Below, in pieces: positions 16,208 to 53,382 of a stretch of 64,000 nucleotides of DNA. A program made the translations under genes and the position numbers. The notes below the pieces were generated by a model, which saw only the letters and a list, made by a program, of their open reading frames with translations, searched no databases and was not told the DNA's origin. The stretch is from Tachypleus tridentatus (taxonomy: Eukaryota): positions 98,889,522-98,953,521 of the forward strand of contig NC_134831.1 in NCBI RefSeq assembly GCF_004210375.1, read 5' to 3'. Position 1 is the first letter of the stretch; every line of letters starts with the position of its first letter.

Positions 16208-16318
16208 CTGAGATGATTTGACTCCAATAAGTCCTTTTGCTGTACTGAAGAGGTTAAGAGGAGTGGCGCCATCTGTAATTAATGCTGATTGGATGCCAAG
16301 CCCTTGTAAGAGCTTCAC
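16208..16318 (-). CDS. MVP: MVP exon m. Encodes [37 protein letters not shown]. It ends at a donor site, so at least one more 3' exon exists.
   Basis: Acceptor ttatttccag|GTGAAG and donor TCTCAG|gtatat. Matches human [34 protein letters not shown]. Confidence 0.85.
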
Positions 16319-17164
16319 CTGGAAATAAATCATTTATAAAAAAAAAGCACACTTCTATAGAGTTTAAAATTAATTCTATATGTGACCTTCAATCTATAAT
16401 ACAATTATTGATAGTAATTAATATATTTCTATTTCATCAAACATTTAAATTAAACTCGAAACAACTATGCTGGAGGTGAACATGTAGTTAACTTTAACAG
16501 GAAATGATACATTACATTTCTTTTAAAATTAAAAAACAAACATCAACAAATATTAAAATTAATAGAAAACTATAATGAAAAATTTGTAGTTTTCTAGTTT
16601 TAACACACATTTATTTCTTGCTTTTTATTTATTTTTACTCATAAAATTATATATTTATTTAAAGGTTTCTCATGTTTCTTTTACTTTTATGAGTTACTCC
16701 AAATTAATCGCATAGAAGTTTCAAACATACAGTTTCATATAAAAATGCCTCATCACTCAAATCTTTAAGTTTTCAATGCATTCTGTGATTAAGACAGACA
16801 TAACATACATTTATAAAAACTAAGTAAAGTTTCATGTTCTCAAAAGGGCATCTTATAAATGTGATCTGCAAAAAACATTATAATGGATTTGAGCAAAAAT
16901 AACAGATACACAAAATGAATACTTTATCAAAATCAAAGCTATTAGTGGTGTTCTACTTACAAGTTGAGAGAACACAATGTAGAGAACACAAGAGAAATAT
17001 AAATCATTGATTTATTCTTTTTCACTTTATGTCTCTTTAAACATAGACTCGGACATGGAACTGACCTCATAACCAGTTTGTGCTTATTATGGTTTTTATG
17101 CTGTTACTTTGAAATCAGTAAGCATATGTTCACAAAATTTGATAGATTACACTATGTAACACAA

Positions 17165-17580
17165 ATTTTGTTCCTGGATAGTGTGTGTTATTTCTTAACT
17201 GCTTATGTTGTAAAAGTACAGAAAATGGCCATTATTCCCTTCAAACTTTGCTTTTGTGACCTGGATAATGAAATTTAGAAATTAACCTATTTTCTAGGTA
17301 AAAACAGGCAATAAAACAACATATGAACCAAGATTTACATGTATTTATACTAAAGTTATACAAAAATGTTTAGAAGTGAGTAGTTTTTCGAGATTTGCGA
17401 CTGTAATGTAAATCACTTTCACGTATCAGCCTCCAAATACAGTCTCCCATCATGTTTTCGTTATACACTCCCAGGTCACAAAAGCAAAGTTTGAACAGAA
17501 AAATAGGTTTTTTCCATTTACTTTAGGCATAAGCAATTGGGAAATAACATTTTGTGCCCAGGAACAAGAAAAAGTAAAAA
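17165..17580. mobile_element. MITE-like element, copy 2, inverted relative to copy 1. It lies in the MVP intron between exons m and l.
   Basis: Its termini are ttgttcctgg ... ccaggaacaag. The internal inverted repeats are cccttcaaactttgcttttgtgacctgg and caggtcacaaaagcaaagtttgaac. Its reverse complement aligns with 3100..3515 along the full length. Confidence 0.65.
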
Positions 17581-17785
17581 TGTTGTTACTTAGTGTTATC
17601 AATAAATATTACAATGCATTAGTACACAAAATTTGATTTGTTTTACTGAGTCTTAAGATTTGCCAACTAATGTTTTTCTTATGCCTTTTTTCTTCTTGCA
17701 TATTTCTCATCCAAGAAGCAAAATTATTTTATTTTTAAGATTATAAATACTTTTATGCATCAGAAAAGTTTCATATTTCACATAC

Positions 17786-18257
17786 ATTTCTTATAATGTC
17801 TAGATAGTTATCAAATACTTCTTATAATGTCTAGATAGTTATCAAACATTTCTTATAATGTCTAGATAGTTATCAAACATTTCTTATAATGTCTAGATAG
17901 TTATCAAACATTTCTTATAATGTCTAGATAGTTATCAAACATTTCTTATAATGTCTAGATAGTTATCAAGCATTTCTTATAATGTCTAGATAGTTATCAA
18001 GCATTTCTTATAATGTCTAGATAGTTATCAAACATTTCTTATAATGTCTAGATAGTTATCAAACATTTCTTATAATGTCTAGATAGTTATCAAGCATTTC
18101 TTATAATGTCTAGATAGTTATCAAACATTTCTTATAATGTCTAGATAGTTATCAAACATTTCTTATAATGTCTAGATAGTTATCAAACATTTCTTATAAT
18201 GTCTAGATAGTTATCAAACATTTCTTATAATGTCTAGATAGTTATCAAACATTTCTT
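17786..18257. repeat. Tandem minisatellite, 31-bp unit (catttcttataatgtctagatagttatcaaa), about 15 copies. It lies in the MVP intron between exons m and l.
   Basis: Period 31 bp, with aaca/agca variants. Confidence 0.95.
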
Positions 18258-19570
18258 AAGAAACATCTTTATATTTTATCTGTTATTTTCACTAACAAAT
18301 CTCCATTCAGATTCATTCAATTTGACTGGTTATTGTAACCATTATAAAAAATTACAAAACCAATATAAATTATGCCTGTTTCATTCTAGAATGACTAGAG
18401 ATAACATGTTTAGACTAAGTAGTTTAAATTTTATAACATTAAACATTTATGAATATTTATTACTTTTTATTATATCGACCTTTCAGCCATTCCTGGCTAA
18501 CAACACAAAAGTTACAATCACACAGCTCATGTCCATTCCTGTTACCAATCCAATAATACAAAACTGACCAGTCTTGATAATGTTTTGTGGACTAGTAATT
18601 TGTATAATACAGTCAAATTTCATTTATTATACATTATTACTATTTACAAATAGATTCTCAAACTTATAAAGAAGTAAAACAAACAGTTATTTCTTCTAGT
18701 TACAACCTTTGTATTCGGTTACTGCTCGTTGTAGCTTGCTAAACCTTAATAAACTGTGCATGTGGAAGACTTGAAAAGTAATAATATTTCTTCAGTTTTA
18801 TATATACTTTTGAATAATAATAAAAAACTCTGCTACATCACAGAATTCCTTTATAATTTATCAAGTTTAGTTACTAAACTCTGTTTGGGTTTAAGAGAAA
18901 AGGAATTTTGAACAGGCTAAAGACTCAACTTACCAGCACAAAGGTTTCTCTCAAAAGAAAGTGATGCCCCAGTTATATTTGAAAATGGCTGATGAAACCA
19001 CTAAAGAGGTATTCTGAGTTTTCAATTGGTTATAACATATCATATATATATATATATAATAAGTGTATATAAAACACAGTTTCAAAAAATAAAAAGTGAT
19101 AAGAGGACCATTGTCTTTGATTGAATACAAGAATGATATCTAAGCAAATAGAAAAGAGAGAAGTTTCTTATTTCATATTCTAGCTTGTCAATATTGGTAA
19201 TTTGAGTTCCTAATTCATACAAAACTACAGACTTTGAATCTTGACATCACAAACATTCAATTTAAACCAGTGTACTGGATTCAGAATACGACACAACACA
19301 AAAATCTGTGTTTAGGTGCATTTTTTAATATTTATTTTTAAATTAAGAGGCCAAATAATGTATAATACAAAGTTCTACACTGTAATCTACAGTTGGATAC
19401 CAAACTTAATGATACAAATTCAAGAAATAATAGTTCAGTAAAGTTTTGAATGCAAATCAACAAACATGACAAGATGACCTTTGACCCATGACCTATTTGG
19501 AAAGGGTTATACGAACACAAAATGCTACTTCCCATAACACTGGATTTAAAATTACGTCCTACACACTCAC

Positions 19571-19759
19571 CTGTAATTCAGGACCTGCTCGAGCAATGAA
19601 ACTAATTGTTTCTCGACCCAAAGAACCCACTATACTTTTGAACTTCTGAATATCAATATCAGCTAGTTCTTTAACTTTTTCCACTTCCAAATTAATCTGT
19701 TGCTGAAGATACTGGACCTCAGCTTGTCTTGCACAAGACAGTCGTTTCAATTCAGTTTC
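19571..19759 (-). CDS. MVP: MVP exon l. Encodes ETELKRLSCARQAEVQYLQQQINLEVEKVKELADIDIQKFKSIVGSLGRETISFIARAGPELQ.
   Basis: Acceptor tttcctttag|GAAACT and donor TTACAG|gtgagt. Matches human ..[41 protein letters not shown]. Confidence 0.85.
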
Positions 19760-20061
19760 CTAAAGGAAAAATAAACACAGGGAAAGTAAGAAAAAACACG
19801 TGTATTTATACACACCATGATTTTTTAGAGAATTAGAAAACTACTTTCTGTTTGATAATATTATAGTTCATTACACTTGATCATATAAAACACACAAATT
19901 ATTTTAGATTCTTCTTACATCTAACCTACAGCTTACTCTGGCTCATAATAAAACAATATTCATCCCTCCAAAGAATTTTTTATTTGTCTTCAAAAACTGT
20001 GGCATGTTACTAAACTGCACAGCATTTTAATATCATGTAAGAAATAAGTTCCAAGACGTAC

Positions 20062-20305
20062 TGCTTCAATTCTCAAAGCCTCTCCTTTTAATTTGGCTTT
20101 TTCCACTTCCGATCTACCCTCTATCAGTTGTGACTCGACACGGCTCTGGGCCTCTGCTTTGGCTTGCCCACAGCTCTCCACCACCATGCTGGAAGCTTGT
20201 AACTCAAGTAGTTCTTTCCTAGCACGTTCAACTTCCACTTCGTCCGCGATCTTCTGTCTTTCGAGATGCCCTTTGGCTTCTTGTTCACGCCTTTCTGCCT
20301 CGTGC
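20062..20305 (-). CDS. MVP: MVP exon k. Encodes (R)[81 protein letters not shown]. This is the shoulder and cap-helix coiled-coil region.
   Basis: Acceptor ttgttggcag|GCACGAG and donor GAAGCA|gtacgt. Matches human [80 protein letters not shown]. Confidence 0.85.
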
Positions 20306-20344
20306 CTGCCAACAATGTTTGAAGTTAGTATTTGTTCATTTCGA

Positions 20345-20485
20345 TTTTCATGCAAAGCTACCTATCTGTGCTAGCTAGCCCTAACTTAGCAGTGTAAGAC
20401 TAAAGGGAAGGCAGTTAGTCATTACCACCAACTGTCAAGTCTTAGGCTACTCTTTTACCAACACATAGTGGAGTTGGCCATCACA
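20345..20485 (-). mobile_element. tRNA-derived SINE copy E. It is truncated to the tail half and abuts the 3' end of the CR1-like LINE.
   Basis: The sequence catgcaaagctacctatctgtgctagctagccctaacttagcagtgtaagactaaagggaaggcag... matches the family tail and body. The head is absent. Confidence 0.65.
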
Positions 20486-20499
20486 TTATAATGGAAAAT

Positions 20500-23340
20500 A
20501 GATGATACATCAACACAATCAGTTCTCTCTACAATCTCAAACACTTCAATCAAACTGCCCCTAAATCTTCTTTTATTAAGAAAACAGAATTTGAAAGACA
20601 TGACAACCCCTCCATCCCAGTTACCCTTCTCTGAACCTTTCCCAACAATTCAATGTCTTTCCTAAGGTAAGGAGCCCAAGGCTGAACACAGTATTCCAAA
20701 TGTGGACTAACCAGTGACTTAAACAATGAAATTATGACCTCTTTAGAATTTCTGGAAATACAACTAAAATCCTATTTACTTTACCACTAACAACAGCACA
20801 CTGCTTGGATAGCTTTAGAAACCATCTGTTGCATCCTTTCCTTCATGACACTGTTACGGTAATTCCAATTCAAGTTACCCACATACAATATCTTGCATTT
20901 ATAATAATTAAAATCCATCTGCCATTTATTCACCCAACTCACTGAATGATCTAAATCATTTTGTAAAGCAGCAGCTACCAACATCCAAGACCTTAATATC
21001 ATCAACAAATGTAAGTAATTTATTGACCATTCCTTTATCTACGTCACTGATGTAAATCAAAAAGAATAAAGGTCCAAATACTGACCCCTGAGATACCACA
21101 CTTGTGACATTAATCCAGTTTGAGTGAACTCCATTTGTAACAACCCTTTGCTTCCATCCATCCATCCACTCTTCTATCCAACATGCTAACTTATCACCCA
21201 CACCAAGAGACTTTTTTTTTACAAGCCTTTTATGTAGCACCTTGCCAAATACTTTCTGAAAATCCAGATACACCAAATCCACACCCTTATGCTCATCTAC
21301 ATAAGCAGTAACCTTTTCAAAGAATGTTGAAAGATTTGTAAGGCATGATTGTCCCTTAAAGAAAACATGTTGACCATCCAATAATATTCTAAATTTTGTT
21401 AAATGACTTTGGAAAGCATCCTTTAACAGACTTTCCAACCCCCCCCCCCCCATCTGATTAGTGTCTTCACATAACTCAACTGTCAAACCAACCCCCCCAT
21501 CTGATCAGTGTCTTCACAAAACTCAACTGTCAAACCAACCCCCCCATCTGATTAGTGTCTTCACATAACTCAACTGTCCAATTCGCAACAGATAGTTCTT
21601 GTTGCACTCTTTTAAACCTAGTTCTTTTGAAATCTGAAACCAATATATCATTCTTTATTATCTTCATATGCAACAAAACATTGACCCTAGTAGAGCAATG
21701 ATTACTTGTACCCAGACGTTCCCCATTATCCACCCACTCAATCATTTGTATAATAGAAGTTAACAATAAATCCAAAATATTATTGAATCTAGAAGGTTCA
21801 TTGACTAATTGGTTAAGAAAGCCACCCTGAACAGTTTACAAACAAAACAAACTTTCCTCCCTCATGGTTTGACTCTTGCATTTCCCACTCTACATGTCTG
21901 AATTTAAAATCAGCCATAATAATGACCAGCTGAAATATTAACCGTATTGTAAAGTTTCTCACTAATTTCATCAATATCATTTGGTGGTCTGTAACATACT
22001 CCCACTTCTCCCTTTATACTCATTAATATCATTTGGTGGTCTGTAACATACTCCCACTTCTCCCTTTATACTCATTAATATCATTTGGTGGTCTGTAACA
22101 TACTCCTACTTCTCCCTTTATACTCATTAATATCATTTGGTGGTCTGTAACATACTCCCACTTCTCCCTTTATACTCATTAATATCATTTGGTGGTCTGT
22201 AACATACTCCTACTTCTCCCTTTATACTCATTAATATCATTTGGTGGTCTGTAACATACTCCCACTTCTCCCTTTATACTCATCAATATCATTTGGTGGT
22301 CTGTAACATACTCCTACTTCTCCCTTTATACTCATTAATATCATTTGGTGGTCTGTAACATACTCCCACTTCTCCCTTTATACTCATCAATATCATTTGG
22401 TGGTCTGTAACATACTCCCACTTCTCCCTTTATACTCATTAATATCATTTGGTGGTCTGTAACATACTCCTACTTCTCCCTTTATACTCATTAATATCAT
22501 TTGGTGGTCTGTAACATACTCCTACTTCTCCCTTTATACTCATTAATATCATTTGGTGGTCTGTAACATACTCCCACTTCTCCCTTTATACTCATTAATA
22601 TCATTTGGTGGTCTGTAACATACTCCCACTTCTCCTTTATACTCATTAATATCATTTGGTGGTCTGTAACATACTCCTACTTCTCCCTTTATACTCATTA
22701 ATATCATTTGGTGGTCTGTAACATACTCCTACTTCTCCCTTTATACTCATTAATATCATTTGGTGGTCTGTAACATACTCCCACTTCTCCCTTTATACTC
22801 ATTAATATCATTTGGTGGTCTGTAACATACTCCTACTTCTCCCTTTATACTCATTAATATCATTTGGTGGTCTGTAACATACTCCTACTTCTCCCTTTAT
22901 ACTCATTAATATCATTTGGTGGTCTGTAACATACTCCCACTTCTCCCTTTATACTCATTAATATCATTTGGTGGTCTGTAACATACTCCCACTTCTCCCT
23001 TTATACTCATTAATATCATTTGGTGGTCTGTAACATACTCCCACTTCTCCCTTTATACTCATTAATATCATTTGGTGGTCTGTAACATACTCCTACTTCT
23101 CCCTTTATACTCATTAATAAAAACCCAAATGGATTGAATCTTCTTGCTGTTATCTTTAACAGGATGTAACTCACATTTAACATACAAAGTCACTCCCCTT
23201 CTATCCACTTTAATAGCCTGTAACCTTGTATTTCAAAGAAACCTCCATAATAAAAATGATCTGTGTTTAACCATGTTTCAGTTATTTCCATTACATTAAA
23301 ATCACCCATTCCTACCAGTGCTCTAAAGTCATTATATTAT
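20500..23340 (-). mobile_element. CR1-like non-LTR retrotransposon (LINE), degenerate. It has an endonuclease domain at roughly 21600..23340 that is interrupted by the 52-bp array. The RT N-terminal domains are lost and replaced by a roughly 55-bp triplication at 21440..21600. RT motifs and a C-terminal region follow at 20560..21486.
   Basis: Minus-strand translations show: ITETWL...YRPP...IIMADFKFRHVEWE...LDLLLTS for the endonuclease; FFKGQSCLTNL...VDLVYLDFQKVFGKVLHKRL...VVTNGVHSNWINVTSVVSQGSVFGPLFFLIYISDVD...FVDDIK for the RT; and LQNDLDHSVSWVNKWQMDFNYYKCKILYVG...SLFKSLVSPHLEYCVQPWAPYLRKDIELLGKVQRRVTGM at the 3' end. A C13 run lies at 21438..21450. Confidence 0.8.
21962..23118. repeat. Tandem minisatellite, 52-bp unit (ctcattaatatcatttggtggtctgtaacatactccYacttctccctttata), about 22 copies. 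It is embedded in the CR1-like LINE endonuclease region.
   Basis: Period 52 bp. The reverse-complement unit translates to IKGEVGVCYRPPNDINE, the conserved YRPP segment of a LINE endonuclease domain. Confidence 0.9.
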
Positions 23341-24180
23341 TTATTACAATAGTAGTAGTTAAGCCTATCCTTATAACTACTTCTATACTTATTTCCTATG
23401 CTAAACTTTTCACTACCCCTTATTCTTTTCACATTTAGTTTTTCCTGGCCTTCACTGCTGTCTAGTTATTGTTTAAAACTTTCCTTACAGCTGAGTTAAT
23501 AAGTCTTAGCAAACAAGCCAGCCCCTACCTTATTTAAATGTAAATTCTCCAGTCCAAAAAAAAAAAAAACTCTGTTCTTCATTCTTCCACTGAACTAATC
23601 CCACAAGTCCAACCAGCCAATCTGCTCATCTTTACATACTAACCTAAGCCTAACATTTAGCTCTAGTGTCCTACTTCATCCACACAATTAATTCTGGGGA
23701 GCATCCGTGACAAAATTAAGTTATGGCCCTCATCTTTAAATGTCTTTATTAACCCTTTGTACTTATTATTTCTTCTTACCTACCTATCCCTACATTATTA
23801 GGCCCTACCTGCAGTGCAAAAACTGCATTTCTGCTAGCCCCCTTCATTATATCTCCTGCTTTGTCAGTTACATCCTTCACTTGTGCCCCTGGGTAGCATA
23901 AACCGATTCATAATTCCCTATTTACCCTAATTTATGGTATGTTAAAAACTTTTACAACTCTACATAAAACAACACTGTATTCATTGATATTACATTTTCA
24001 ACTCTCAATAAAACACCCTTTTTACTGAGAACCACACAGTTACCAGTCATAACAAAGTAAGAACCCTTTATCTTGTAACAATGAAAGAGGAAAGACACAC
24101 GATTGTATACACATTCCAAATATGACCCTAGCAAAACATGTTTCCAGTTGCAGGTTAATTAGAAAACAGAAAATGCTTAC

Positions 24181-24392
24181 CTTGCAGTAGCCTCTAGACT
24201 CTGTGTAGTTATTTCAATAGCCAGCTGTACAGATCTCAGTAACGAGTCTCTTGTTCTCTGATCCACAGGTTCTACACTTTGGATGTCTACACTAGTGATT
24301 ACTAGGTTGTTCTGAGGAAACATGAACTGTTTTCTCATCCTAAGATTCTCGTCGTATCCAAACACAGCCGTGCAGATTATTTTTGCAGAGTT
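24181..24392 (-). CDS. MVP: MVP exon j. Encodes [70 protein letters not shown](R).
   Basis: Acceptor ttgcatacag|AACTCT and donor GCAAG|gtaagc. Matches human NSARIIRTAVFGFE...[50 protein letters not shown]. Confidence 0.9.
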
Positions 24393-24535
24393 CTGTATGC
24401 AAGTCAGAAAGTTGTTGAGATAAAAGATAATAAAAACAATATTATTATTTGCAAAATTGCTTTAACTCAATTGAAACTTACTTCAAGACTGAGAGAGTTA
24501 AGCTTTAGTGTTTACTAATTCACAACATTAACTTA

Positions 24536-25273
24536 TAGATAACATGAAACAATGAGGACAAATTTAGAAGAAAGGTTTAAAAAGTTATATAAATAACATG
24601 AAACAGTGCAGACAAATTTAGAAGAAAGGTTTAAAAAGTTATATAGATAACATGAACAAGTGTGGACAAATTTAGAAGAAAGGTTTAAAAAGTTATATAG
24701 ATAACATGAACAAGTGTGGACAAATTTAGAAGAAAGGTTTAAAAAGTTATATAGATAACATGAACAAGTGTGGACAAATTTAGAAGAAAGGTTTAAAAAG
24801 TTATATAGATAACATAGTGCAGACAAATTTAGAAGAAAGGTTTAAAAAGTTATATAGATAACATAGTGCAGACAAATTTAGAAGAAAGGTTTAAAAAGTT
24901 ATATAGATAACATAGTGCAGACAAATTTAGAAGAAAGGTTTAAAAAGTTATATAGATAATATGAAACAGTGCAGACAAATTTAGAAGAAAGGTTTAAAAA
25001 GTTATATAGATAACATGAAACATTGCAGACAAATTTAGAAGAAAGGTTCAAAAAGTTATATAGATAACATGAAACATTGCAGACAAATTTAGAAGAAAGG
25101 TTCAAAAAGTTATATAGATAACATGAAACAGTGCGGACACATTTAGAAGAAAGGTTTAAAAAGTTATATAGATAACATGAAACAGTGCAGACAAATTTAG
25201 AATAAAGGTTTAAAAAGTTATATAGATAACATGAAACATTGCAGACAAATTTAGAAGAAAGGTTTAAAAAGTT
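24536..25273. repeat. Tandem minisatellite, about 54-bp unit (gataacatgaaacagtgcagacaaatttagaagaaaggtttaaaaagttatata), about 13 copies.
   Basis: Period 49 to 54 bp; some units lack gaaac. ORFs 24533..24826 and 24899..25105 are artefacts. Confidence 0.95.
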
Positions 25274-25530
25274 AAGATTTCATCAGTTTTTATAACATTG
25301 AAAATATCGTTGATAAACTGCATCTAAGATACAAATAAATAACCAAACCTAACAATACCTCCTGTTAAAAAATCCCTATATAATATATACATAACAACAA
25401 CATAATAAAGGCTACAATTTAAGTTGTATGATATATTTTATTGAACTGGAACAAGTCATTAGATAAACCATTACTTTTAAACCATGACTCTCAGAATGAG
25501 TTAAAGGTGAAAGAAAAGCCCTTCAGTGAG

Positions 25531-32421: not shown

Positions 32422-32563
32422 CTTGTGAAAGTTATCAAAAGTTACACTAGCCACAGCACTCCTAATCCGTGAAGCTATAGCCTTACACAAGTCACCCACG
32501 AAATCTGGAACACTGAAGAGACTTGCAGCTGTTTCTGGGCTTTTGTTGTAAGTCTCAAAATGC
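32422..32563 (-). CDS. MVP: MVP exon i. Encodes (W)[47 protein letters not shown].
   Basis: Acceptor cccatttttcag|GCATTT and donor CACAAG|gtgaac. Matches human [48 protein letters not shown]. Confidence 0.9.
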
Positions 32564-33648: not shown

Positions 33649-33846
33649 CAATTATAAGCCAACTGCAGCTGAAGACGAGCATGGTCAGCTGTTTCAACAG
33701 AAATAATATCGGTGCAGAAATCTGGCCCAAGCAGCAGACAAAGAGAGTGGATAACATTTGGCCGTTTAGGCTTTCCCCCAGATAAGCTAAGCTGAGTGAA
33801 CTGTTCATCAGGCCCTAACATTACCAAGTCTGGCCCAAATATAACC
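33649..33846 (-). CDS. MVP: MVP exon h. Encodes (R)[65 protein letters not shown](W).
   Basis: Acceptor ttatctttag|GGTTAT and donor AATTG|gtaagt. Matches human [29 protein letters not shown]...[32 protein letters not shown]. Confidence 0.9.
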
Positions 33847-34525: not shown

Positions 34526-34785
34526 CTGGCCTTCTTTTCCTTGTAATCAAACACTTGAACTGCAGCATTGTGGGGCACTCTTAATGTGACAACTTTGGTC
34601 TTGTCACGGACTTCAGGAGCACTTCTGGTTTTAGCCACAGCATTTGCTTGTTTGTTCCAATCACCTCTGTCAGCTAACAGATCACGATATCCACTTAAGA
34701 GTTCATCTACTACAGTCGGTAGTTCCTTGTTCCACAACTCTTCATCCTGGTTTAACATATAGGCCTCTCCACATACTAATCTCAC
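34526..34785 (-). CDS. MVP: MVP exon g. Encodes [86 protein letters not shown](R).
   Basis: Acceptor ccctccacag|GTGAGA and donor GGCCAG|gtgaga (phase 2). Matches human [30 protein letters not shown]...[24 protein letters not shown]. Confidence 0.9.
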
Positions 34786-39556: not shown

Positions 39557-39743
39557 CTTAACTGATTCTTTAAAAAGAAAAAGAGAAAAATACTATTTAT
39601 AAAAACTCTTGTACAGCTACAAGAGCCATTAAGTTTATATCAGATACATCCAAAAAACAGTAAGTATTTTTAGATATAATCTTGTTTAACTCTAGAATTC
39701 AATTTAGTGATATTTGGCTAAAAAGTTAAGTGAAGAAAAATAC

Positions 39744-39970
39744 AGGGAACAAAACATGTCTATAGTCTCCTGAAGTAACACTAATAACATGGAACAAAAC
39801 ATGTCTATAGTCTCCTGAAGTAACACTAATAACATGGAACAAAACACGTCTATAGTCTCCTGAAGTAACACTAATAACATGGAACAAAACACGTCTATAG
39901 TCTCCTGAAGTAACACGAATAACATGGAACAAAACATGTCTATAGTCTCCTGAAGTAACACTAATAACCA
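39744..39970. repeat. Tandem repeat, 45-bp unit (ggaacaaaacatgtctatagtctcctgaagtaacactaataacat), 5 copies. It ends 3 bp from the MVP exon f donor site.
   Basis: Period 45 bp. The last unit runs into catacccttccgg, which is the gtatgg donor on the minus strand. Confidence 0.95.
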
Positions 39971-39973
39971 TAC

Positions 39974-40123
39974 CCTTCCGGTTTTGATGTTCCTGACATA
40001 TATGCCTTCATTTTCATCTAATGGAATAGTGTATCGCTTGGCGATGACTTCAACTTCTACTGGAGGAATATACTCCTCAGGACCACGGATCATCCATTTA
40101 TCACCTGGATTTCTCTTAACAGC
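39974..40123 (-). CDS. MVP: MVP exon f. Encodes [50 protein letters not shown].
   Basis: Acceptor ttattatcatag|GCTGTT and donor GGAAGG|gtatgg. Matches human ..[44 protein letters not shown]. The track ORF 39704..40093 runs on into the adjacent tandem repeat; that extension is an artefact. Confidence 0.9.
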
Positions 40124-42503: not shown

Positions 42504-42861
42504 TGTATTTGAAACACCCTCTTTCATCTCTGTAATAAATGAAAAACTGTCAAAATAAATATTCAAGCAAAAACTGTCAATAGACTTGAGCTGATTGATG
42601 CCATTTAAGTGATCAAATTAAGATTGATTGGCTATGATTTCAAAAATGTCAAAATTTGCTTTTTGTGTGGTTAAGAATTACCTATTAAATTCTTTTTCTA
42701 TATTTTTTGTCTAATACTGTGTTGTTTTTTTGTATAGCTATAGTTTAGATTATAAGTTACTATTCCATTTGCACTTATTTCATAAAATGCCAAATGCATA
42801 TGTACAAACCAAACTAGTAATTATAACAGTGATGTTGAAAAAACCCACTTGTAGAGAAAAA

Positions 42862-42982
42862 TATATATGTAAAAACGGCTCGTTTAGGTTGAGAAAATTT
42901 TTTACGTAGAGGAGCTAACAACGTTTCGACCTTCCATGTAAAAACTTTTCTCAACCCAAACGAGCTGTTTTTACATATATAT
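42862..42982. mobile_element. Small hairpin (foldback) element with a 37-bp inverted repeat (2 mismatches) around a 47-bp loop.
   Basis: The left arm is atatatatgtaaaaacggctcgtttaggttgagaaaa. The right arm reverse complement is atatatatgtaaaaacagctcgtttgggttgagaaaa. Confidence 0.6.
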
Positions 42983-43129
42983 TTAAACTGGTAATTAATC
43001 ACATAAAACCGAGTGATCAGAATTGAAGTTATAAACAAAAGATATAAAATTATCTATACAAGTGTGAGGGATAAGTTATCAAATTCGATAGAAGAGTGGC
43101 TGGACTGATGGAAGCAAAATGTTGTCACA

Positions 43130-44100: not shown

Positions 44101-44277
44101 TAAAATGTTATATTATAAGCTATCAAGATTCTCAGGTACACTGAGATTCAAGAATACTGCTATAATATAAGCAAAAACCATTATTCAGATAACAGTATAT
44201 AAATGCTACAAATGACTACTTTTCACAGTTATAGTACCCATATTGGCTAACCCGAATTGTGCCACAAAGTTTGTTAC

Positions 44278-44409
44278 CGGCAGGACAGTATCATCTGTAA
44301 AAGTTTCTTTGGCTCGTAGGATCAATCCTTCATTTTCTCCCAGAACACAGATGTCTTGAATACCATTTTCTAGTCTTTCTCCAGGCATAAGAAAGAAAGA
44401 TATTTCACC
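44278..44409 (-). CDS. MVP: MVP exon e. Encodes [44 protein letters not shown].
   Basis: Acceptor atcaatag|GGTGAA and donor CTGCCG|gtaaca. Matches human [41 protein letters not shown]... Confidence 0.85.
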
Positions 44410-44654
44410 CTATTGATAAAAAAAACAGCTACAAACATGTGCTTATAAAACATAATTCTTTACAAAATCAACAACGGTACGTGTGTAAGGAAAGATTCAG
44501 ATATTTTACTCATTTCATGACAAATTTATGATACAAAGAAAAATATATATTATTAAAACTCCACAGAGATTGTTGTTTGTGATGTTAAAAACTGTGTTTT
44601 ACCATCAGTTAAAGGAAACAACTGTAACAGTTCCATAAATTCTCATCAGTATTT

Positions 44655-46750
44655 CAATTTCTTATACAGTGGGCTTATGAAATAAGAGAGGCAGTTATAA
44701 TTAAAACATTCAACATACTTTAACCAATTTCTTATGCATACAGTGGGCTTATGAACTAAGAGACACAGTTATAATTAAAACATTCAACATACTTAACCAA
44801 TTTCTTATGCATACAGTGGGCTTATGAACTAAGAGACACAGTTATAATTAAAACATTCAACATACTTTAACCAATTTCTTATGCATACAGTGGGCTTATG
44901 AACTAAGAGACAGTTATATTAAAACATTCAACATACTTTAACCAATTTCTTATGCATACAGTGGGCTTATGAACTAAGAGACACAGTTATAATTAAAACA
45001 TTCAACATACTTAACCAGTTTCTTATGCATACAGTGGGCTTATGAAATAAGAGACACAGTTATAATTAAAACATTAAACATACTTTAACCAATTTCTTAT
45101 GCATACAGTGGGCTTATGAACTAAGAGACAGTTATATTAAAACATTCAACGTACTTTAACCAATTTCTTATGCATACAGTGGGCTTATGAACTAAGAGAC
45201 AGTTATAATTAAAACATTCAACATACTTTAACCAATTTCTTATACATACAGTGGGCTTATGAAATAAGAGACACAGTTATAATTAAAACATTCAACATAC
45301 TTAACCAATTTCTTATACATACAGTGGGCTTATGAAATAAGAGACACAGTTATAATTAAAACATTCAACATACTTAACCAATTTCTTATTCATACAGTGG
45401 GCTTATGAACTAAGAGACAGTTATATTAAAACATTCAACATACTTTAACCAATTTCTTATGCATACAGTGGGCTTATGAACTAAGAGACACAGTTATAAT
45501 TAAAACATTCAACATACTTAACCAGTTTCTTATGCATACAGTGGGCTTATGAACCAAGAGACACAGTTATAATTAAAACATTAAACATACTTTAACCAAT
45601 TTCTTATGCATACAGTGGGCTTATGAACTAAGAGACAGTTATATTAAAACATTCAACGTACTTTAACCAATTTCTTATGCATACAGTGGGCTTATGAACT
45701 AAGAGACAGTTATAATTAAAACATTCAACATACTTTAACCAATTTCTTATACATACAGTGGGCTTATGAAATAAGAGACACAGTTATAATTAAAACATTC
45801 AACATACTTAACCAATTTCTTATACATACAGTGGGCTTATGAAATAAGAGACACAGTTATAATTAAAACATTCAACATACTTAACCAATTTCTTATTCAT
45901 ACAGTGGGCTTATGAACTAAGAGACAGTTATATTAAAACATTCAACATACTTTAACCAATTTCTTATGCATACAGTGGGCTTATGAACTAAGAGACACAG
46001 TTATAATTAAAACATTCAACATACTTAACCAGTTTCTTATGCATACAGTGGGCTTATGAACCAAGAGACACAGTTATAATTAAAACATTAAACATACTTA
46101 ACCAATTTCTTATACATACAGTGGGCTTATGAAATAAGAGACACAGTTATAATTAAAACATTAAACATACTTTAACCAATTTCTTATGCATACAGTGGGC
46201 TTATGAACTAAGAGACAGTTATATTAAAACATTCAACATACTTTAACCAATTTCTTATGCATACAGTGGGCTTATGAACTAAGAGACACAGTTATAATTA
46301 AAACATTCAACATACTTAACCAATTTCTTATACATACAGTGGGCTTATGAAATAAGAGACACAGTTATAATTAAAACATTCAACATACTTAACCAATTTC
46401 TTATGCATACAGTGGGCTTATGAAATAAGAGACACAGTTATAATTAAAACATTCAACATACTTTAACCAATTTCTTATTCATACAGTGGGCTTATGAACT
46501 AAGAGACAGTTATATTAAAACATTCAACATACTTTAACCAATTTCTTATACATACAGTGGGCTTATGAAATAAGAGACACAGTTATAATTAAAACATTCA
46601 ACATACTTTAACCAATTTCTTATACATACAGTTGGCTTATGAACTAAGAGACACAGTTATAATTAAAACATTCAACATACTTTAACCAATTTCTTATACA
46701 TACAGTGGGCTTATGAAATAAGAGACAGTTATATTAAAACATTCAACATA
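44655..46750. repeat. Tandem minisatellite, 70 to 76-bp unit (ttaaccaatttcttatRcatacagtgggcttatgaaMtaagagacacagttataattaaaacattcaacatact), about 29 copies. It is contiguous with the 3' end of MVP exon d.
   Basis: On the minus strand each unit reads ...AAGAAATTGGTTAAAGTATGTTGAATG..., which is the last 15 nt of exon d plus its GTATGT donor. Confidence 0.95.
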
Positions 46751-46751
46751 C

Positions 46752-46988
46752 TTTAACCAATTTCTTTTGGCCTAGCTGAGGGGTCCCATCTTCATTAAGA
46801 GGATCAAGAATAACACAGTACTGACGCTTAGATAATGTTGTAATAGATACCACACCGACCACCTGTTCATACACACCCGGTATGTAAGTTTCTGTGTCAG
46901 TCATTTTGATCAACCACTCCTGTCCATTTCTTCTTTCGACTCCCAGCTCATCACAAAATGTACAAGTCGCCCTTACGTGTACTGCTTC
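46752..46988 (-). CDS. MVP: MVP exon d. Encodes [79 protein letters not shown].
   Basis: Acceptor tctgtttcag|GAAGCAG and donor GGTTAAA|gtatgt (phase 0). Matches human [79 protein letters not shown]. Confidence 0.9.
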
Positions 46989-47568
46989 CTGAAACAGACC
47001 CAAGTTTACTAATATAAGTTTGATATGTCAGCATGTGAAATGAATAAGCAACAACAACAACAAAAAACAGAAGTGAAAATGTTATACTTTGAAAGTCACG
47101 AAAAACAAATTTACACTTGTTATAAAAACAACAGTGTATGAAGTGAAAAATAATTCTCAGATGAATTTTGATGAATGGTAACAAGACCACCTGTGAGGTC
47201 AACAAAAGTACACACGTTTGTGTATAAAGTGCTTCATATAATCCAATGTTCAAATAGCTAAGGTTACTGGGAGTTCCACATCTCTTAATATTTGTTTTCA
47301 AAAACACTTAATAGGTTTACTCTGCTGACATATTATTTTTCAGAATTTTCAGATTTTAAACTTTCAAATACTGACACAGCTTTTACTTTATGATCAATGT
47401 GCATTATCTGTGTGCAGCAGGAAACAACTAAATAGTTTAAAAAGAAACATGTTATTTATGTGTTGGTTCCATGTTGAGTCTTACATGGTGATGACCGTAA
47501 CTAACCTGCTTTTCTCATAATCATGCATCGTAAAGTAAAATATAATTGGTGGGGAAAAAAAGAAAAAA

Positions 47569-48030
47569 GGTCAAACATTGTAAAAACAGCAAAATAAGCT
47601 AAAAACAAACATTAGTTTATATCAAAGGTCAAACACTGTGAAAACAGCAAAATAAGCTAAAAACAAACATGAGTTTATATCAAAGGTCAAACACTGTGAA
47701 AACAGCAAAATAAGCTAAAAACAAACATTAGTTTATATCAAAGGTCAAACACTATGAAAACAGCAAAATAAGCTAAAAACAAACATGAGTTTATATCAAA
47801 GGTCAAACACTATGAAAACAGCAAAATAAGCTAAAAACAAACATGAGTTTATATCAAAGGTCAAACACTGTGAAAACAGCACAATAAGCTAAAAACAAAC
47901 ATTAGTTTATATCAAAGGTCAAACACTGTGAAAACAGCACAATAAGCTAAAAACAAACATTAGTTTATATCAAAGGTCAAACACTGTGAAAACAGCAAAA
48001 TAAGCTAAAAACAAACATTAGTTTATATCA
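47569..48030. repeat. Tandem repeat, 59-bp unit (gtcaaacactgtgaaaacagcaaaataagctaaaaacaaacattagtttatatcaaag), about 8 copies.
   Basis: Period 58 to 59 bp. Confidence 0.95.
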
Positions 48031-48201
48031 AGGTTTAATAAATATTTATGTCAGTTAACAGTCTTTTCATTATGTGACATGATGGATCATAAAATTGCGG
48101 AATTATTATATATGCAGAAGTTTTCATATTGGTACTTAAAATACAGGAATGGAAATACATTTAGTGCTGCATGTCTTTTCCTTCCAAATCACAGTAGTTA
48201 C

Positions 48202-48428
48202 CTTTTCTGTCAAAACATATGCATTAACAATATCCACAATTTCTTCATAAGCTCCAGGTAGATAAGCACCTATCTTTCTGACAAGCCACTCCTCTCCACA
48301 CACCCTTATCTTTCCACCTCTGTCTCTTGTCTCTGTACAAGCTCGAAGTTTTAAAGCCTGATTCGGTTTGATTACAAAAGCTCTCACTGTTTCCACAACT
48401 TCAACCTCCTTACAAGGAATGTATGTCC
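48202..48428 (-). CDS. MVP: MVP exon c. Encodes (G)[75 protein letters not shown].
   Basis: Acceptor ..ttaacatag|GGACATAC and donor GAAAAG|gtaact. Matches human [76 protein letters not shown]. Confidence 0.9.
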
Positions 48429-48430
48429 CT

Positions 48431-49452
48431 ATGTTAAAAAATAAATATCAAACATCCATTGGTGATGTATGTTCCTATATAACAGAATAAATATCAAACA
48501 TCCATTGGTTGCTGTATAACACTATGTTACAGAATAAATATCAAACATCCATTGGTTGATGTATAACACTATGTTACAGAATAAATATAAACATCCATTG
48601 GTTGATGTATAATACTATGTTACAGAATAAATATCAAACCTCCATTGGTTAATTATGTTCCTATGTTACAGAATAAATATCAAACGTTCATTGGTTGCTG
48701 TATAACACTATGTTAGAAAATAAATATCAAACATTCATTGGTTGCTATATAACACTACGTTACAAAATAAATATCAAACCTCCATTGGTTGATTATGTTC
48801 TTATGTTACAGAATAAATATCAAACATTCATTGGTTGCTGTATAACACTATGTTACAAAATAAATATCAAACATCCATTGGTTGATGTATAACACTATGT
48901 TAGAAAATAAATATCAAACCTCCATTGGTCACTGTATAACACTATGTTACAGAATAAATATCAAACCTCCATTGGTTGCTGTATAACACTATGTTACAAA
49001 ATAAATATCAAACATCCATTGGTTGCTGTATAACACTATGTTACAAAATAAATATCAAACATTCATTGGTTGCTGTATAACACTATGTTACAGAATAAAT
49101 ATCAAATATTCATTGGTTGCTGTATAACACTATGTTACAAAATAAATATCAAACCTCCATTGGTTGCTGTATAACACTATGTTAGAAAATAAATATAAAA
49201 CCTCCACTGGTTGCTGTATAATACTATGTTACAGAATAAATATCAAACATTCATTGGTTGCTGTATAACACTATGTTACAAAATAAATATCAAACCTCCA
49301 TTGGTTGATGTATAACACTATGTTACAGAATAAATATCAAACCTCCACTGGTTGCTGTATAACACTATGTTACAAAATAAACATCAAACATCCATTGATT
49401 GCTGTATAACACTATGTTACAGAATAAATATCAAACCTCCACTAGTTGCTGA
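48431..49452. repeat. Tandem minisatellite, 47-bp unit (tatgttacagaataaatatcaaacatccattggttgctgtataacac), about 21 copies. It starts immediately upstream (in transcript sense) of the MVP exon c acceptor.
   Basis: On the minus strand the units contain gatatttattctgtaacatag, which copies the polypyrimidine tract and AG acceptor. The second unit also copies the first 10 nt of the exon (GAACATACAT against GGACATACAT). Confidence 0.95.
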
Positions 49453-49573
49453 AACAGTTCTCAATGACAATATGATTACCTTTCAAATAAGATAATAAAC
49501 AGCCAGAGATTCTTAAGTTGTAAGTTGCAATTTCAAGATGGAAAGAGTGAATTTTTTTAGATAACATTTAAAT

Positions 49574-49860
49574 ACAGTGGAACCCCTCTAAGCGGCCACC
49601 CCTCAGATTCGGTCACCCCTTGAAAGTGGTCATTCAATCACAGTCCCTTTTTTTGTTTACATAATCCCTAATTATGTACAGTGGAACCTCTCTAAGCGGC
49701 CACCCCTCAGATTCGGTCACCCCTTGAAAGTGGTCATTCAATCACAGTCCCTTTTTTTGTTTACATAATCCCTAATTATGTACAGTGGAACCCCTCTAAT
49801 CAGGCCAGTTTGTCTCAGTCCCGAAGGTGGCTACTTTAGAGGGGTTCCACTGTAATAGCA
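49574..49860. repeat. 104-bp unit repeated about 2.7 times (acagtggaacccctctaagcggccacccctcagattcggtcaccccttgaaagtggtcattcaatcacagtccctttttttgtttacataatccctaattatgt). It ends in a perfect 17-bp inverted repeat hairpin at 49783..49852.
   Basis: Units start at 49574, 49678 and 49782. The inverted repeat is cagtggaacccctctaa ... ttagaggggttccactg. Confidence 0.85.
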
Positions 49861-51229
49861 AATTTCTGCTGTATCAGATACATTAAATTTGAAAAGATAA
49901 AGATGAAAATAAAAAGAATTTTTTTCATACATGGCTATCTTATAGTAACATATTCTTGTCATTTGTTTCTTTCATAGAGGGAGCTGGTGGTATAAGTGAT
50001 GATAAAACTTATATTTAATAATTTGGGCCTTGAACACCTAAAAAGTTCCAAAAAATTTGACATCATTTATGTGGAATACTAGACTCATATGTGCAAACTA
50101 ATAAACATTTCTTGTGTAAACCTAACAGTGAGTGGTTAATAAAGCTAAAACAAGTTTACTTTTAAATTAAGGATTTTAAACCAGAAAAGAGATAAAACTT
50201 TTAACTACACTTTGACAATCCTAGTGACTGATGATAATATCCATACAGTATTATCTACCATAAAACCTGGATAACTTGAGTCATATTAATATAGATATAT
50301 GCAAAAGTAATAAACTGTGTAATTAAAACAAATGACAACTTTAAATTTTTTTACAAAATATTTTAGCAGCATGAACTGAACATTTATTATACCTGGAAAC
50401 CCTGTCTTAGACAAGTTATAATACAAAGGAATATATTTTGTAATTCTTTAGTTTTGCTTTGGCCAGACCTTATCTAAAAATAAAATCTAATTTTCAATAT
50501 ATTTTCTATTATACAGAAGAGTTCTTATTTTAAAAAAAAGGCATTTAATACATTATAACACTGATTCAAAATTTTTTTACCCCATGAACTGGTAAAATAT
50601 TTGTCAAAAACTCGGGGCCATTGAAAGAATCCTTTTAATTTTGCTTCCTAATTTATTTTCTTCTGAGAAGTTTTGAAGTATAAGTTATCATGATCAACAA
50701 TGTTATGATAAACTACAAAGGGCAAACACAAATTATAAAGTTAACCCTAAATTAATTTTTTTATAAACATTTTTATTAATTTTCTCCTGTCTTTTTCACC
50801 CTGAACATTTCTACAGAACAGAACAACACATACACAGGTCAGTGGTAAGGAACCACTACAATAACAGACTTTTATTTAAAAAGTATATTTATTAATTACC
50901 AATTTATCCAAAATGGACCTGCATTAAAAATATAAAAAAATTAGTTTATAAAATACATTAAATATTTCACGCATTTTAGAGCAAATTTTATTGGAATATA
51001 TTTAAATAACAGCTGCATCTTAAACAAGAAATTCCACAATGTATACCTCTAATAAGTACTCCTGCACCACCTTATCAATATTCAATGTTAATCTACAACA
51101 GATTAGTTATTCTTTACAGTTAATCTTGTAATTAACAAAAACAAAACCACTACACCTTTGATACATCTAATGAGTAATTTGTTCTATCAGTCAGTTGATA
51201 TAAAAAAATAAAATTAAAACTATTACAAC

Positions 51230-51350
51230 CTGGGCCTTCAAACAGCCACTCATCACCAGCAACTTTCTTCTCGTATCTATCCTTGAAATCCCTGAGAGCT
51301 CGAAGCCTAAGTGCTGTGTTTGAAGGTACAACTTTTAAAGGTGTAATATC
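51230..51350 (-). CDS. MVP: MVP exon b. Encodes [40 protein letters not shown](G).
   Basis: Acceptor tttttttag|GATATT and donor CCAG|gttgta. The phase continues into exon c. Matches human DITPLQVVLPNTALHLKAL...[13 protein letters not shown]. Confidence 0.85.
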
Positions 51351-53186
51351 CTAAAAAAATGTTTGAAATGTTCATAAAATATGCACAGATTATATATTTA
51401 AATTTTTTTATGCTTGAACACTCAGATAAAACCACTAACATCTCAGTCTTGATTAGTATTAGTCTAATACAAGGATACAGTGATAAATTATTTAGAGTGC
51501 TATAACACTCATATTATACATCTTCAATAGACTGCTTTTAAATAAATTATGAGCAGTGTTTTTAGGTTCATTCACCAAGTTTGACCACTCTTCACAAACT
51601 TAAAAAATAATTATTTTTCTGCCTATTAATGTGGAGTTTTGTCAATTTAAAAAATGCAATATTTTTCCTTTTTTTAAGTCATACTTTTTTTAAAAAACAT
51701 TGTAAACAAATTATCATTGAAGATTAAAATCATAAATATAGATTACCTATTTTATTCAAAAACAAAAGCAAACTCCAAACACCATTAGAGTTTTTTGTCA
51801 AAACATGAACAATAACACTGCACAACAATTGTTTTGAAAAGTTTTGCTTCCTGAAAAGTGTTTGCTGATTGTAACAGGTACCTGGTGGGTATGCACAAAT
51901 ATAGTTTTGGTTTTACTTCATCACATAGCAACTCTGAGTAACAGACAATTAACTGTTTATCGGCAATAACGTATTTAATTGCATTTATGTTTCTAATATG
52001 CTATTAAGTTTAACATAATTAAAAGTGTTTTGCTCCTGATTTTCATTTGTATTCAATGTCCGGTGCATCACGTTGCAGTGTCCAACAGTAGTCAGCAAGC
52101 ATTGACGGATTCCAGTTGCCCTGATATCGTTTCTCCATTGTAGCAATGTCCTTGTAAAACTGAAGTTTTTGATGAAATGGTACATGATGGGCAAATTTGT
52201 TCAAGAAGCAAAAACTTTGTTGTGCAGTGTAACCATTGTTTCTATAATATCTCCTGGCTAATCAACTTAAAAAAAATTCTGAAAGAACACAATGAATCTA
52301 GAAATATTAATTAGCATAAGACACAAGAAGCAAACTAAATAAATTAAAATTCCATCAAAAAACTATTAAACACCAATAAAGAATCTTGGAATTATGGTGC
52401 TTTCTTTTGACAGAAGAGTAAGAAATACAAAGCCAACCTCAAGCTAGGTTTAAAATAAAATAATACTATGTTTTTGAGATTTCACCATTTGCACTTTAAA
52501 TGAGAGAGATAAAATATCTATATCATGTTACAAAAAATACATTTTTTAAACTATATCATTTAACAATGACTAGATTTTTGGCAAAACACTATATCTGTTG
52601 CATCATTGAAATACCAATACAAAATGAAGAAAAGGAGGTAGGACATCAATCTTTTCTTGTCCCAATCATTGCTACATCTTTCTAATATATTGTGGTCCTG
52701 TTGATGTGACTAGTGGTCCTATTTGTTAATATTCATTTCAACAAAAAATATTGAGATAAATGAAACACTTTTTTCATTTGAAATAAAAATCATATAATGT
52801 CAGCTTGCTCTGAATCGTACTGGGGACCTAAATAGTTGTGTGATAAAATTTCCTTACATTAGGTACTAATAAAGAAACTATTACAGCTGGTATGAACTGC
52901 TAACATGTGCATCACAGAATTAACCATGCTTAACTGAGAATCGCAAATAAGAGCAACTATAACTACTGCATAAATATTTCTGCATAATGAAGTCATAATT
53001 CTTACAACTTTTCTTTTTACTTGGATATACAATAAGAATATTTACATTAAAGAATTTTTTATGTTTGAAAAATACTTATATTTTTAATTCAATTCTTTGT
53101 AGTTTGGTTTGACACCAGAATTTCAAAATCCCAATTTTCTTGATCACATCCAAACAGAGTTTTATATCAATACATTAAATGCTTAC

Positions 53187-53382
53187 CACATGTAGACGCT
53201 CTCCAGGATAAATGGGAAATGGTTCTTGCTCCAATCTAATTTCTAAATCTGCATGCTGTAACTTGACCTGACCAGCAGCATCATACTGGATTGAATTATC
53301 ACGATCATGTACCACAGGGTTCTGGATGACACAGTAATGATGAGGAGGAACAATCACCATTCTCTCAGGACCAAAAATGACC
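53187..53382 (-). CDS. MVP: MVP exon a (earliest MVP exon found). Encodes [65 protein letters not shown]. The 5' boundary is uncertain; it could instead be the ATG at 53390.
   Basis: The translation aligns with the vertebrate MVP N-terminal repeat region (human ...RVLFAPMRMVTVPPRHYC...[25 protein letters not shown]) from recalled homology. Donor GTAAGC follows ...CATGTG. The putative acceptor ..GAAAG|G is weak. Confidence 0.8.

What the first reader, a model, noticed from the sequence alone, without database searches (positions are those of the whole stretch)
16208..53382. Major vault protein gene on the minus strand: 13 exons over about 37 kb
Thirteen minus-strand exon-sized ORF segments are bounded by canonical AG/GT sites with consistent phases. 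Together they translate to about 806 aa that align collinearly with vertebrate MVP. They run from the N-terminal repeat region (..[12 protein letters not shown].., [16 protein letters not shown]) through [27 protein letters not shown] and the shoulder and cap-helix coiled coil to [24 protein letters not shown]. Identity to human MVP looks like 55 to 65% from recalled sequence. MVP is absent from insects, nematodes, fungi and plants. This and the AT-rich, satellite-rich context suggest a non-model metazoan such as a mollusc, echinoderm or chelicerate. Introns range from under 2 kb to about 8 kb and are packed with repeats.
Basis: partly seen in the sequence, partly recalled or inferred. Interest (0 to 1): 0.6.

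Follow-up and report, generated by a model that had tools for sequence, protein, structure and literature searches.

The report
Horseshoe crab major vault protein gene

Summary
Confirmed. The minus strand of window 16029-53382 carries 14 coding exons. All 13 introns between them start with GT and end with AG. The spliced translation is identical at 812 of 812 residues to aa 52-863 of NCBI XP_076369364.1, "major vault protein-like [Tachypleus tridentatus]".

It missed two things. An 18-nt last coding exon (HREEV*, 16046-16029) follows its last exon. The first coding exon (aa 1-51) lies upstream, beyond the window end.

The protein has every Pfam MVP domain. It aligns end to end with solved mammalian MVPs and is 62.6% identical to rat MVP. 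Two Limulus MVP genes have the same exon lengths and phases. dN/dS against the Limulus orthologue is 0.18, so the gene is under purifying selection.

Horseshoe crabs have two old MVP paralogues. This is the faster-evolving "A" copy.

One side observation has some interest. 40% of the intron sequence consists of 18 unrelated minisatellite arrays. At least 7 were amplified in place from sequence that is single-copy in Limulus. Two arrays repeat a working splice site about 20 times.

Verdict: a known gene, correctly read, of low interest.

The parts
53383..64000 (-). 3' part of the intron between coding exon 1 (outside the window) and coding exon 2. It holds a mariner-like fragment and a 63-bp satellite.
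   Evidence: No 5-mer word and no 7-of-12 match to aa 1-52 of P0001 in any minus-strand frame. Acceptor ctctatggaaag|G at 53383/53382. TRF array 55825-63995. HTH_48 ORF 54334-54771 on the plus strand.
53187..53382 (-). Coding exon 2 of 15 (196 nt; last base of codon 52 to aa 117). Encodes the end of repeat domain R1 and R2 (Vault_2).
   Evidence: Same length and phase as exon 2 of both Limulus genes.
51230..51350 (-). Coding exon 3 (121 nt)
48202..48428 (-). Coding exon 4 (227 nt). Its acceptor is the last copy of a 47-bp minisatellite.
46752..46988 (-). Coding exon 5 (237 nt). Its last 15 nt plus the donor form part of the unit of a 73-bp minisatellite.
44278..44409 (-). Coding exon 6 (132 nt)
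39974..40123 (-). Coding exon 7 (150 nt)
34526..34785 (-). Coding exon 8 (260 nt)
33649..33846 (-). Coding exon 9 (198 nt). Encodes the end of Vault_3 and the start of the shoulder domain ([27 protein letters not shown]).
32422..32563 (-). Coding exon 10 (142 nt), shoulder domain
24181..24392 (-). Coding exon 11 (212 nt), end of the shoulder and start of the cap helix
20062..20305 (-). Coding exon 12 (244 nt), cap-helix coiled coil
19571..19759 (-). Coding exon 13 (189 nt), end of the cap helix
16208..16318 (-). Coding exon 14 (111 nt), cap ring ([24 protein letters not shown]...)
16029..16046 (-). Coding exon 15: 18 coding nt (HREEV plus the TAG stop), then the 3' UTR.
   Evidence: Acceptor tctttatttcag|CAC. 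An 18-nt last coding exon is also present in both Limulus genes, and Limulus A ends ...SPQHKEEE.
15771..16028 (-). Start of the 3' UTR, with candidate AATAAA signals at 15830-15825 and 15780-15775. The true poly(A) site is not determined.
   Evidence: Read directly from the sequence. This is inference only.

Best explanation
This is coding exons 2-15 of the 15-coding-exon major vault protein gene of the horseshoe crab Tachypleus tridentatus (RefSeq XP_076369364.1 to XP_076369367.1). It is the 'A' copy of two ancient horseshoe crab MVP paralogues. It is transcribed from the minus strand. What is shown: 13 canonical GT-AG introns are removed to give an 863-aa protein, 812 aa of it encoded in the window. 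That protein has the N-terminal vault repeat domains, the shoulder domain, the long cap-helix region and the cap-ring region. What is inferred, from 62.6% identity to rat MVP and established knowledge of rat and human vaults: 78 copies assemble through side-by-side packing of the repeat domains and bundling of the cap helices into two 39-mer half-shells joined at their N-termini. Together these form the hollow vault particle. The introns are unusually large because unrelated minisatellites were amplified in place in the Tachypleus lineage, and because transposable-element fragments were inserted.
For: The best database hit is T. tridentatus 'major vault protein-like', followed by two Limulus MVPs. 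The spliced translation equals P0001 aa 52-863 at 812/812 residues, and every junction is GT..AG. Pfam finds Vault (4 stretches, 3.5e-68), Vault_2, Vault_3, Vault_4 and MVP_shoulder (3.1e-53), all far above the curated cut-offs. A single collinear alignment covers residues 14-856 against rat/human MVP residues 4-853, at E = 0, with 62.6% identity. Exon lengths 196, 121, 227, 237, 132, 150, 260, 198, 142, 212, 244, 189, 111, 18 and their phases are identical in the Limulus A gene. They are also identical in the Limulus B gene except for one exon (132 instead of 111 nt). dN/dS against Limulus A is 0.176 with dS 0.30. The paralogue tree groups Tt-A with Lp-A and Tt-B with Lp-B. This fits the whole-genome duplications reported for horseshoe crabs (PMC7815833, PMC11836539).
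Against: Nothing contradicts it. Limits: no RNA-seq was available, so the junctions rest on exact agreement with the RefSeq model and on conservation in Limulus. The species call rests on protein identity only; no Tachypleus DNA could be fetched, and the other two Asian horseshoe crabs were not in the protein hits. Coding exon 1 and the promoter lie outside the window. Assembly into vault particles has never been shown for a horseshoe crab, and a literature search found no such study.
Confidence: 0.97

Rival explanations
1. The A copy is a decaying or non-functional duplicate (pseudogene) left by the horseshoe crab genome duplications, and the B copy does the work.
For: The A lineage evolves faster: Tt-A and Lp-A are 88.9% identical, while Tt-B and Lp-B are 93.9% identical. 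A is also more distant from outgroups, at about 68% against about 72%. Repeated decoy splice sites sit next to two exons.
Against: The reading frame is intact over 812 codons, all splice sites are canonical and exon lengths are conserved. dN/dS is 0.176. All MVP domains score far above threshold.
Confidence: 0.03
2. The A paralogue is a true MVP by descent but has taken on a partly different role from classical cytoplasmic vaults. One example would be a secreted or structural role like the MVP in salmon-louse cement, or mixed particles built from both paralogues as in trypanosomes.
For: Two paralogues have been retained since before the Limulus/Tachypleus split, with unequal rates. PMC11219742 reports MVP as an extracellular cement component in a copepod. 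PMC12547018 reports vaults built from several MVP paralogues.
Against: No sequence feature found here points to a new function. The domain set and length are canonical, and dN/dS is low.
Confidence: 0.12
3. The window comes from another horseshoe crab species (Tachypleus gigas or Carcinoscorpius rotundicauda), not from T. tridentatus.
For: No DNA-level comparison with T. tridentatus was possible. Proteins of those two species did not appear among the hits.
Against: 812 of 812 residues are identical to the T. tridentatus RefSeq protein. Limulus differs at 11% of residues, so some differences would be expected in a protein that evolves at this rate.
Confidence: 0.05

Closest known systems
Tachypleus tridentatus major vault protein-like, XP_076369364.1 to XP_076369367.1 (RefSeq model)
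   Same: Identical at all 812 residues encoded in the window (aa 52-863). Every junction of the model is reproduced with GT..AG.
   Different: Nothing differs in what can be compared. The window lacks the exon for aa 1-51.
Limulus polyphemus MVP-like isoform X1 (P0002; locus KI894836.1), the orthologue
   Same: 88.9% identical. It has the same 15 coding exons, with identical lengths and phases for exons 2-15. It has the same short C-terminal tail (QHKEEE against QHREEV).
   Different: The introns are much shorter. For example, the intron after the 237-nt exon is 304 nt, against 2342 nt here. Limulus has one copy of sequences that are minisatellite arrays in the window. The Limulus draft is an old assembly with gaps.
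Horseshoe crab MVP paralogue B (Limulus P0003; Tachypleus P0010/P0020)
   Same: About 80% identical, with the same exon structure apart from one exon of 132 instead of 111 nt.
   Different: It is a separate locus (in Tachypleus, a different chromosome-scale record). It evolves more slowly and has a longer acidic C-terminal tail (...LEESSKGEEDT).
Rat and human major vault protein (PDB 4V60, 7PKZ, 9Z4W and others)
   Same: A collinear end-to-end alignment at 62.6% identity. Same Pfam domains: vault repeats, shoulder, cap helix and cap ring.
   Different: The horseshoe crab protein has about 10 extra residues at the N-terminus and small indels in the R8 loop and the shoulder/cap-helix linker. It lacks the proline-rich C-terminal extension of human MVP. 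Particle formation has not been tested.

Membership tests
Major vault protein (MVP) | N-terminal array of vault repeat domains (Pfam Vault, Vault_2, Vault_3, Vault_4) | tested here: met
   Vault 225.8 bits (4 stretches), Vault_2 122.7 (2 stretches), Vault_3 127.8, Vault_4 76.8, against cut-offs of 23-29 bits. The scan was run on P0001, whose aa 52-863 are identical to the window translation.
Major vault protein (MVP) | Shoulder domain (PF11978) | tested here: met
   179.3 bits, residues 533-650, covering the full profile 1-118.
Major vault protein (MVP) | Long cap-helix region followed by the cap-ring region, collinear with solved MVP structures | tested here: met
   one uninterrupted alignment, query 14-856 against rat chain 4-853, which includes the segments the solved structures assign to the cap helix and cap ring. 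Coiled-coil propensity was not computed separately.
Major vault protein (MVP) | Complete N-terminal domain R1, which forms the waist contact between the half-vaults | tested here: inconclusive
   R1 is present in the RefSeq protein P0001 (alignment starts at residue 14). However, the exon for aa 1-51 is not in the window.
Major vault protein (MVP) | Orthology and conserved gene structure with recognised MVP genes, under purifying selection | tested here: met
   Identical exon lengths and phases in two Limulus MVP genes. The tree places it with Limulus A. dN/dS is 0.176.
Major vault protein (MVP) | Self-assembly into a 78-subunit vault particle that carries vault RNA, PARP4 and TEP1 | not testable with these tools
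   This needs expression plus electron microscopy. No Rfam family, including vault RNA, reaches threshold in the window. That says nothing about the rest of the genome.

The most novel reading that the evidence does not exclude
The Tachypleus lineage may have gone through an unusually active phase of in-place minisatellite birth inside genes. In this one gene, 18 unrelated arrays make up 40% of the intron sequence. At least 7 grew from sequence that is single-copy at the same spot in Limulus. Two of them copy a working splice site about 20 times: the exon 5 donor with its last 15 exon bases, and the exon 4 acceptor with its pyrimidine tract. If the spliceosome sometimes uses these decoy sites, the gene would produce stop-containing transcripts. 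The arrays would then act as an expression damper specific to the faster-evolving A paralogue.
Probability: 0.1. Interest if true: 0.4.

Novelty: already known. Interest (0 to 1): 0.12.

Why it matters
It matters little beyond quality control. The gene is already in RefSeq, and MVP in chelicerates has been reported (PMC11219742). The case does show that the first-stage reader can reconstruct a 13-exon gene, to the base, from raw sequence. The two retained MVP paralogues are a usable example for studying the fate of duplicated genes in horseshoe crabs. The splice-site-containing minisatellites are a small natural experiment in splice-site choice.

Tried and rejected
- Coding exon 1 was searched for in 53383-64000 in all three minus-strand frames, by 5-mer words and by 12-mers with at least 7 identities. 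Nothing was found.
- The T. tridentatus genomic locus was looked up by exact protein. It is not on record, so identity to the source genome could not be confirmed at the DNA level.
- An Rfam scan of the whole window for vault RNA or any other RNA family found nothing at gathering thresholds. ARAGORN found no tRNA genes.
- All array units were compared with each other for a shared satellite family. There were no cross hits.
- ORFs in 1-16100 were listed to look for a second protein-coding gene. They showed only repeat-derived ORFs, a reverse-transcriptase fragment and SINE-like copies. Not every flank ORF was scanned, and no homology search of the flanks was run, so small exons of a neighbouring gene cannot be excluded.
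- The literature was searched for horseshoe crab MVP and for tandem-repeat content of horseshoe crab genomes. Nothing specific turned up.
- The pseudogene reading was rejected on the intact frame and on dN/dS.
- Structure prediction was not run, because 62.6% identity to solved structures already settles the fold.
Full report
**1. Observation**

The minus strand between 16.2 and 53.4 kb holds a series of exon-sized ORFs.

A rough concatenation of these ORFs matched solved major vault protein chains at E = 1.5e-254. In the large protein collection its best hit was NCBI "major vault protein-like [Tachypleus tridentatus]" (P0001, 863 aa). Two Limulus polyphemus MVPs came next, then scorpion, spider, mollusc, echinoderm, hemichordate and cnidarian MVPs.

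tblastn of P0001 against the window found 13 collinear minus-strand segments at 93-100% identity. The mismatches lay only at segment edges that run into introns.

**2. Gene model**

I searched each junction for a GT/GC donor and an AG acceptor that reproduce P0001 exactly. Each junction had a single solution, all GT..AG.

The 13 exons are:

| Exon (of those in the window) | Coordinates |
|---|---|
| 1 | 53382-53187 |
| 2 | 51350-51230 |
| 3 | 48428-48202 |
| 4 | 46988-46752 |
| 5 | 44409-44278 |
| 6 | 40123-39974 |
| 7 | 34785-34526 |
| 8 | 33846-33649 |
| 9 | 32563-32422 |
| 10 | 24392-24181 |
| 11 | 20305-20062 |
| 12 | 19759-19571 |
| 13 | 16318-16208 |

- They total 2419 nt, about 806 codons.
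- P0001 continues past 'SSQ' with HREEV. The window has the donor CAG|gtataa at 16208, a 161-nt intron, and the acceptor tttcag|CACAGAGAAGAAGTGTAG at 16046-16029.
- With that exon added, the translation equals P0001 aa 52-863 at 812/812 residues.
- The first exon in the window starts at the third base of codon 52, at the acceptor ggaaag|G. The preceding 51 codons have no match anywhere in 53383-64000. The gene is therefore cut at its 5' end by the window.
- Exons have 43% G+C and introns 31%.

**3. Independent support for the junctions**

No RNA data were available, so I fetched the two Limulus MVP loci and built their models in the same way.

- Both Limulus genes have 15 coding exons.
- Exons 2-15 measure 196, 121, 227, 237, 132, 150, 260, 198, 142, 212, 244, 189, 111 (132 in the B copy) and 18 nt.
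- These are the same lengths and phases as the 14 window exons, including the tiny terminal exon.
- The window therefore holds coding exons 2-15 of 15. Exon 1 is expected to be 155 nt.
- The Limulus orthologue ends ...SPQHKEEE, compared with ...SSQHREEV here.

**4. What the protein is**

- Pfam finds Vault (4 stretches), Vault_2, Vault_3, Vault_4 and MVP_shoulder, all far above the curated cut-offs.
- Against solved structures there is one uninterrupted alignment, residues 14-856 against rat/human residues 4-853, at E = 0.
- Identity to the rat chain is 525 of 838 aligned columns, or 62.6%. Over the window-encoded part it is 62.9%.

By established knowledge of rat and human vaults, 78 MVP chains form two 39-fold half-shells. 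The repeat domains make the barrel wall, the shoulder narrows it, the cap helices bundle, and the N-termini meet at the waist (summarised in PMC3762200 and PMC13347060). At this level of identity the same assembly is the natural inference here, but it has not been shown.

dN/dS against the Limulus orthologue is 0.176 (dS 0.30, 812 codons), which indicates purifying selection.

**5. Paralogy and taxon**

- Pairwise identities and a neighbour-joining tree give two horseshoe crab clades: A (Tachypleus P0001 with Limulus P0002, 88.9%) and B (Tachypleus P0020 with Limulus P0003, 93.9%). The two clades are about 80% identical to each other.
- The duplication therefore predates the Limulus/Tachypleus split. 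This fits the whole-genome duplications described for horseshoe crabs (PMC7815833, PMC11836539).
- The window gene is the faster-evolving A copy.
- P0001 corresponds to XP_076369364.1 to XP_076369367.1, so the gene is already annotated.
- The species assignment rests on 100% protein identity. The Tachypleus DNA could not be fetched.

On distribution, Daly et al. 2013 concluded that vaults were lost from fungi, insects and probably plants, and found none in arthropods (PMC3762200). A 2024 study found MVP across most ecdysozoan lineages, including Chelicerata, wingless hexapods and two marine nematodes, with loss in winged insects (PMC11219742).

**6. Surroundings**

- Upstream of the first exon in the window lie a degenerate mariner-like element (HTH_48 ORF at 54334-54771 on the plus strand) and a 63-bp satellite of about 128 copies (55825-63995) that runs off the window.
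- Intron 10 of the window numbering holds a LINE fragment in the same orientation as the gene (RVT_1 ORF at 20956-21486).
- Downstream of the gene there are candidate AATAAA signals, another reverse-transcriptase fragment (13579-13794), a 51-bp AT-rich array (9209-11520) and four copies of a roughly 180-nt SINE-like repeat.
- No Rfam family reaches its gathering threshold, and ARAGORN finds no tRNA gene.
- ORF listing and the few Pfam scans run showed no second protein-coding gene. The flanks were not searched by homology.

**7. Side observation: minisatellites born in place, some containing splice sites**

Eighteen TRF arrays (periods 25-104 bp, 89-100% matches) cover 14,158 of 34,917 intron bases, or 40.5%. 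No two arrays share a unit.

Seven units have one single-copy counterpart at the collinear intron position of the Limulus A gene.

Three arrays touch splice sites:
- **The 73-bp array at 44664-46766.** Its unit contains the last 15 nt of the 237-nt exon plus its donor (AAGAAATTGGTTAAA|GTATGTTG). There are 18 copies within 3 mismatches. The same intron is 304 nt in Limulus A and 212 nt in Limulus B, but 2342 nt here. The Limulus intron aligns to one unit followed by the unique tail of the Tachypleus intron.
- **The 47-bp array at 48429-49451.** It consists of 22 copies of the pyrimidine tract and the AACATAG acceptor of the 227-nt exon. This sequence is single-copy in Limulus.
- **The 45-bp array at 39742-39968.** It starts 6 nt after the donor of the 150-nt exon and is again single-copy in Limulus.

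Since arrays cover 40% of the introns, two or three of 26 exon-intron boundaries touching an array is not more than chance would give.

The decoy donors are followed by an in-frame TGA three codons in, so using them would give stop-containing transcripts. Whether they are ever used is unknown.

One caveat applies: the Limulus assembly used is an old draft with gaps (4289 N in L001), which could under-represent arrays. However, the diverged unit boundaries in Limulus argue against a collapsed array at the exon 5 junction.

**8. Verdict**

The gene is ordinary and already annotated, so novelty is 'already known' and interest is low. The only mildly unusual aspect is the load of locally born minisatellites, some of which duplicate splice sites.

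Noticed in passing
window 16047-53186 (introns of the MVP gene): 18 unrelated minisatellite arrays (periods 25-104 bp, 89-100% copy identity) make up 40.5% of the intron sequence. No two arrays share a unit. 7 units have a single-copy counterpart at the orthologous intron position in Limulus, so they were amplified in place in the Tachypleus lineage.
   Followed up: partly
window 44664-46766: The unit of this 73-bp minisatellite includes the last 15 nt of the 237-nt exon plus its 5' splice site. At least 18 near-identical decoy donors follow the real one. The orthologous Limulus intron is 304 nt with a single unit.
   Followed up: yes
window 48429-49451: A 47-bp minisatellite made of 22 copies of the pyrimidine tract plus the AACATAG acceptor of the 227-nt exon. 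Some copies also mimic the first 10 exon bases. The sequence is single-copy in Limulus.
   Followed up: yes
window 39742-39968: A 45-bp array of 5 copies starts 6 nt after the donor of the 150-nt exon and keeps the exon's reading frame open (129-aa ORF 39704-40093). It is single-copy in Limulus A.
   Followed up: partly
window 55825-63995: A 63-bp satellite (about 128 copies, 94% matches, strong A-over-T skew) fills the last 8 kb of the window and runs off its end. It lies inside the first coding intron of the MVP gene.
   Followed up: no
window 20455-23119, minus strand: A LINE fragment in intron 10, in the same orientation as the gene (RVT_1 ORF at 20956-21486). Its upstream part (translation ...GVCYRPPN...) has itself been amplified into a 52-bp array of 22 copies at 21968-23119.
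   Followed up: partly
window 54334-55040, plus strand: A degenerate mariner/Mos1-like transposase fragment (HTH_48, E = 1.4e-8), just upstream of the first MVP exon in the window.
   Followed up: partly
window 801-980, 1559-1734, 7531-7649, 8480-8663: Four copies, 72-87% alike, of a roughly 180-nt repeat with a tRNA-like GGTTCGAA core, probably a tRNA-derived SINE. ARAGORN calls no tRNA there.
   Followed up: partly
P0001/P0002 versus P0003/P0020; loci L001 and L002: The two horseshoe crab MVP paralogues evolve at unequal rates: the A pair is 88.9% identical and the B pair 93.9%. They differ in the length of exon 14 (111 against 132 nt) and in their C-terminal tails.
   Followed up: partly
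window 15870-15950, minus strand (3' UTR): Three tandem copies of a 27-nt unit (ttcaagcactccgttgtgttgttaat) lie shortly after the stop codon.
   Followed up: no
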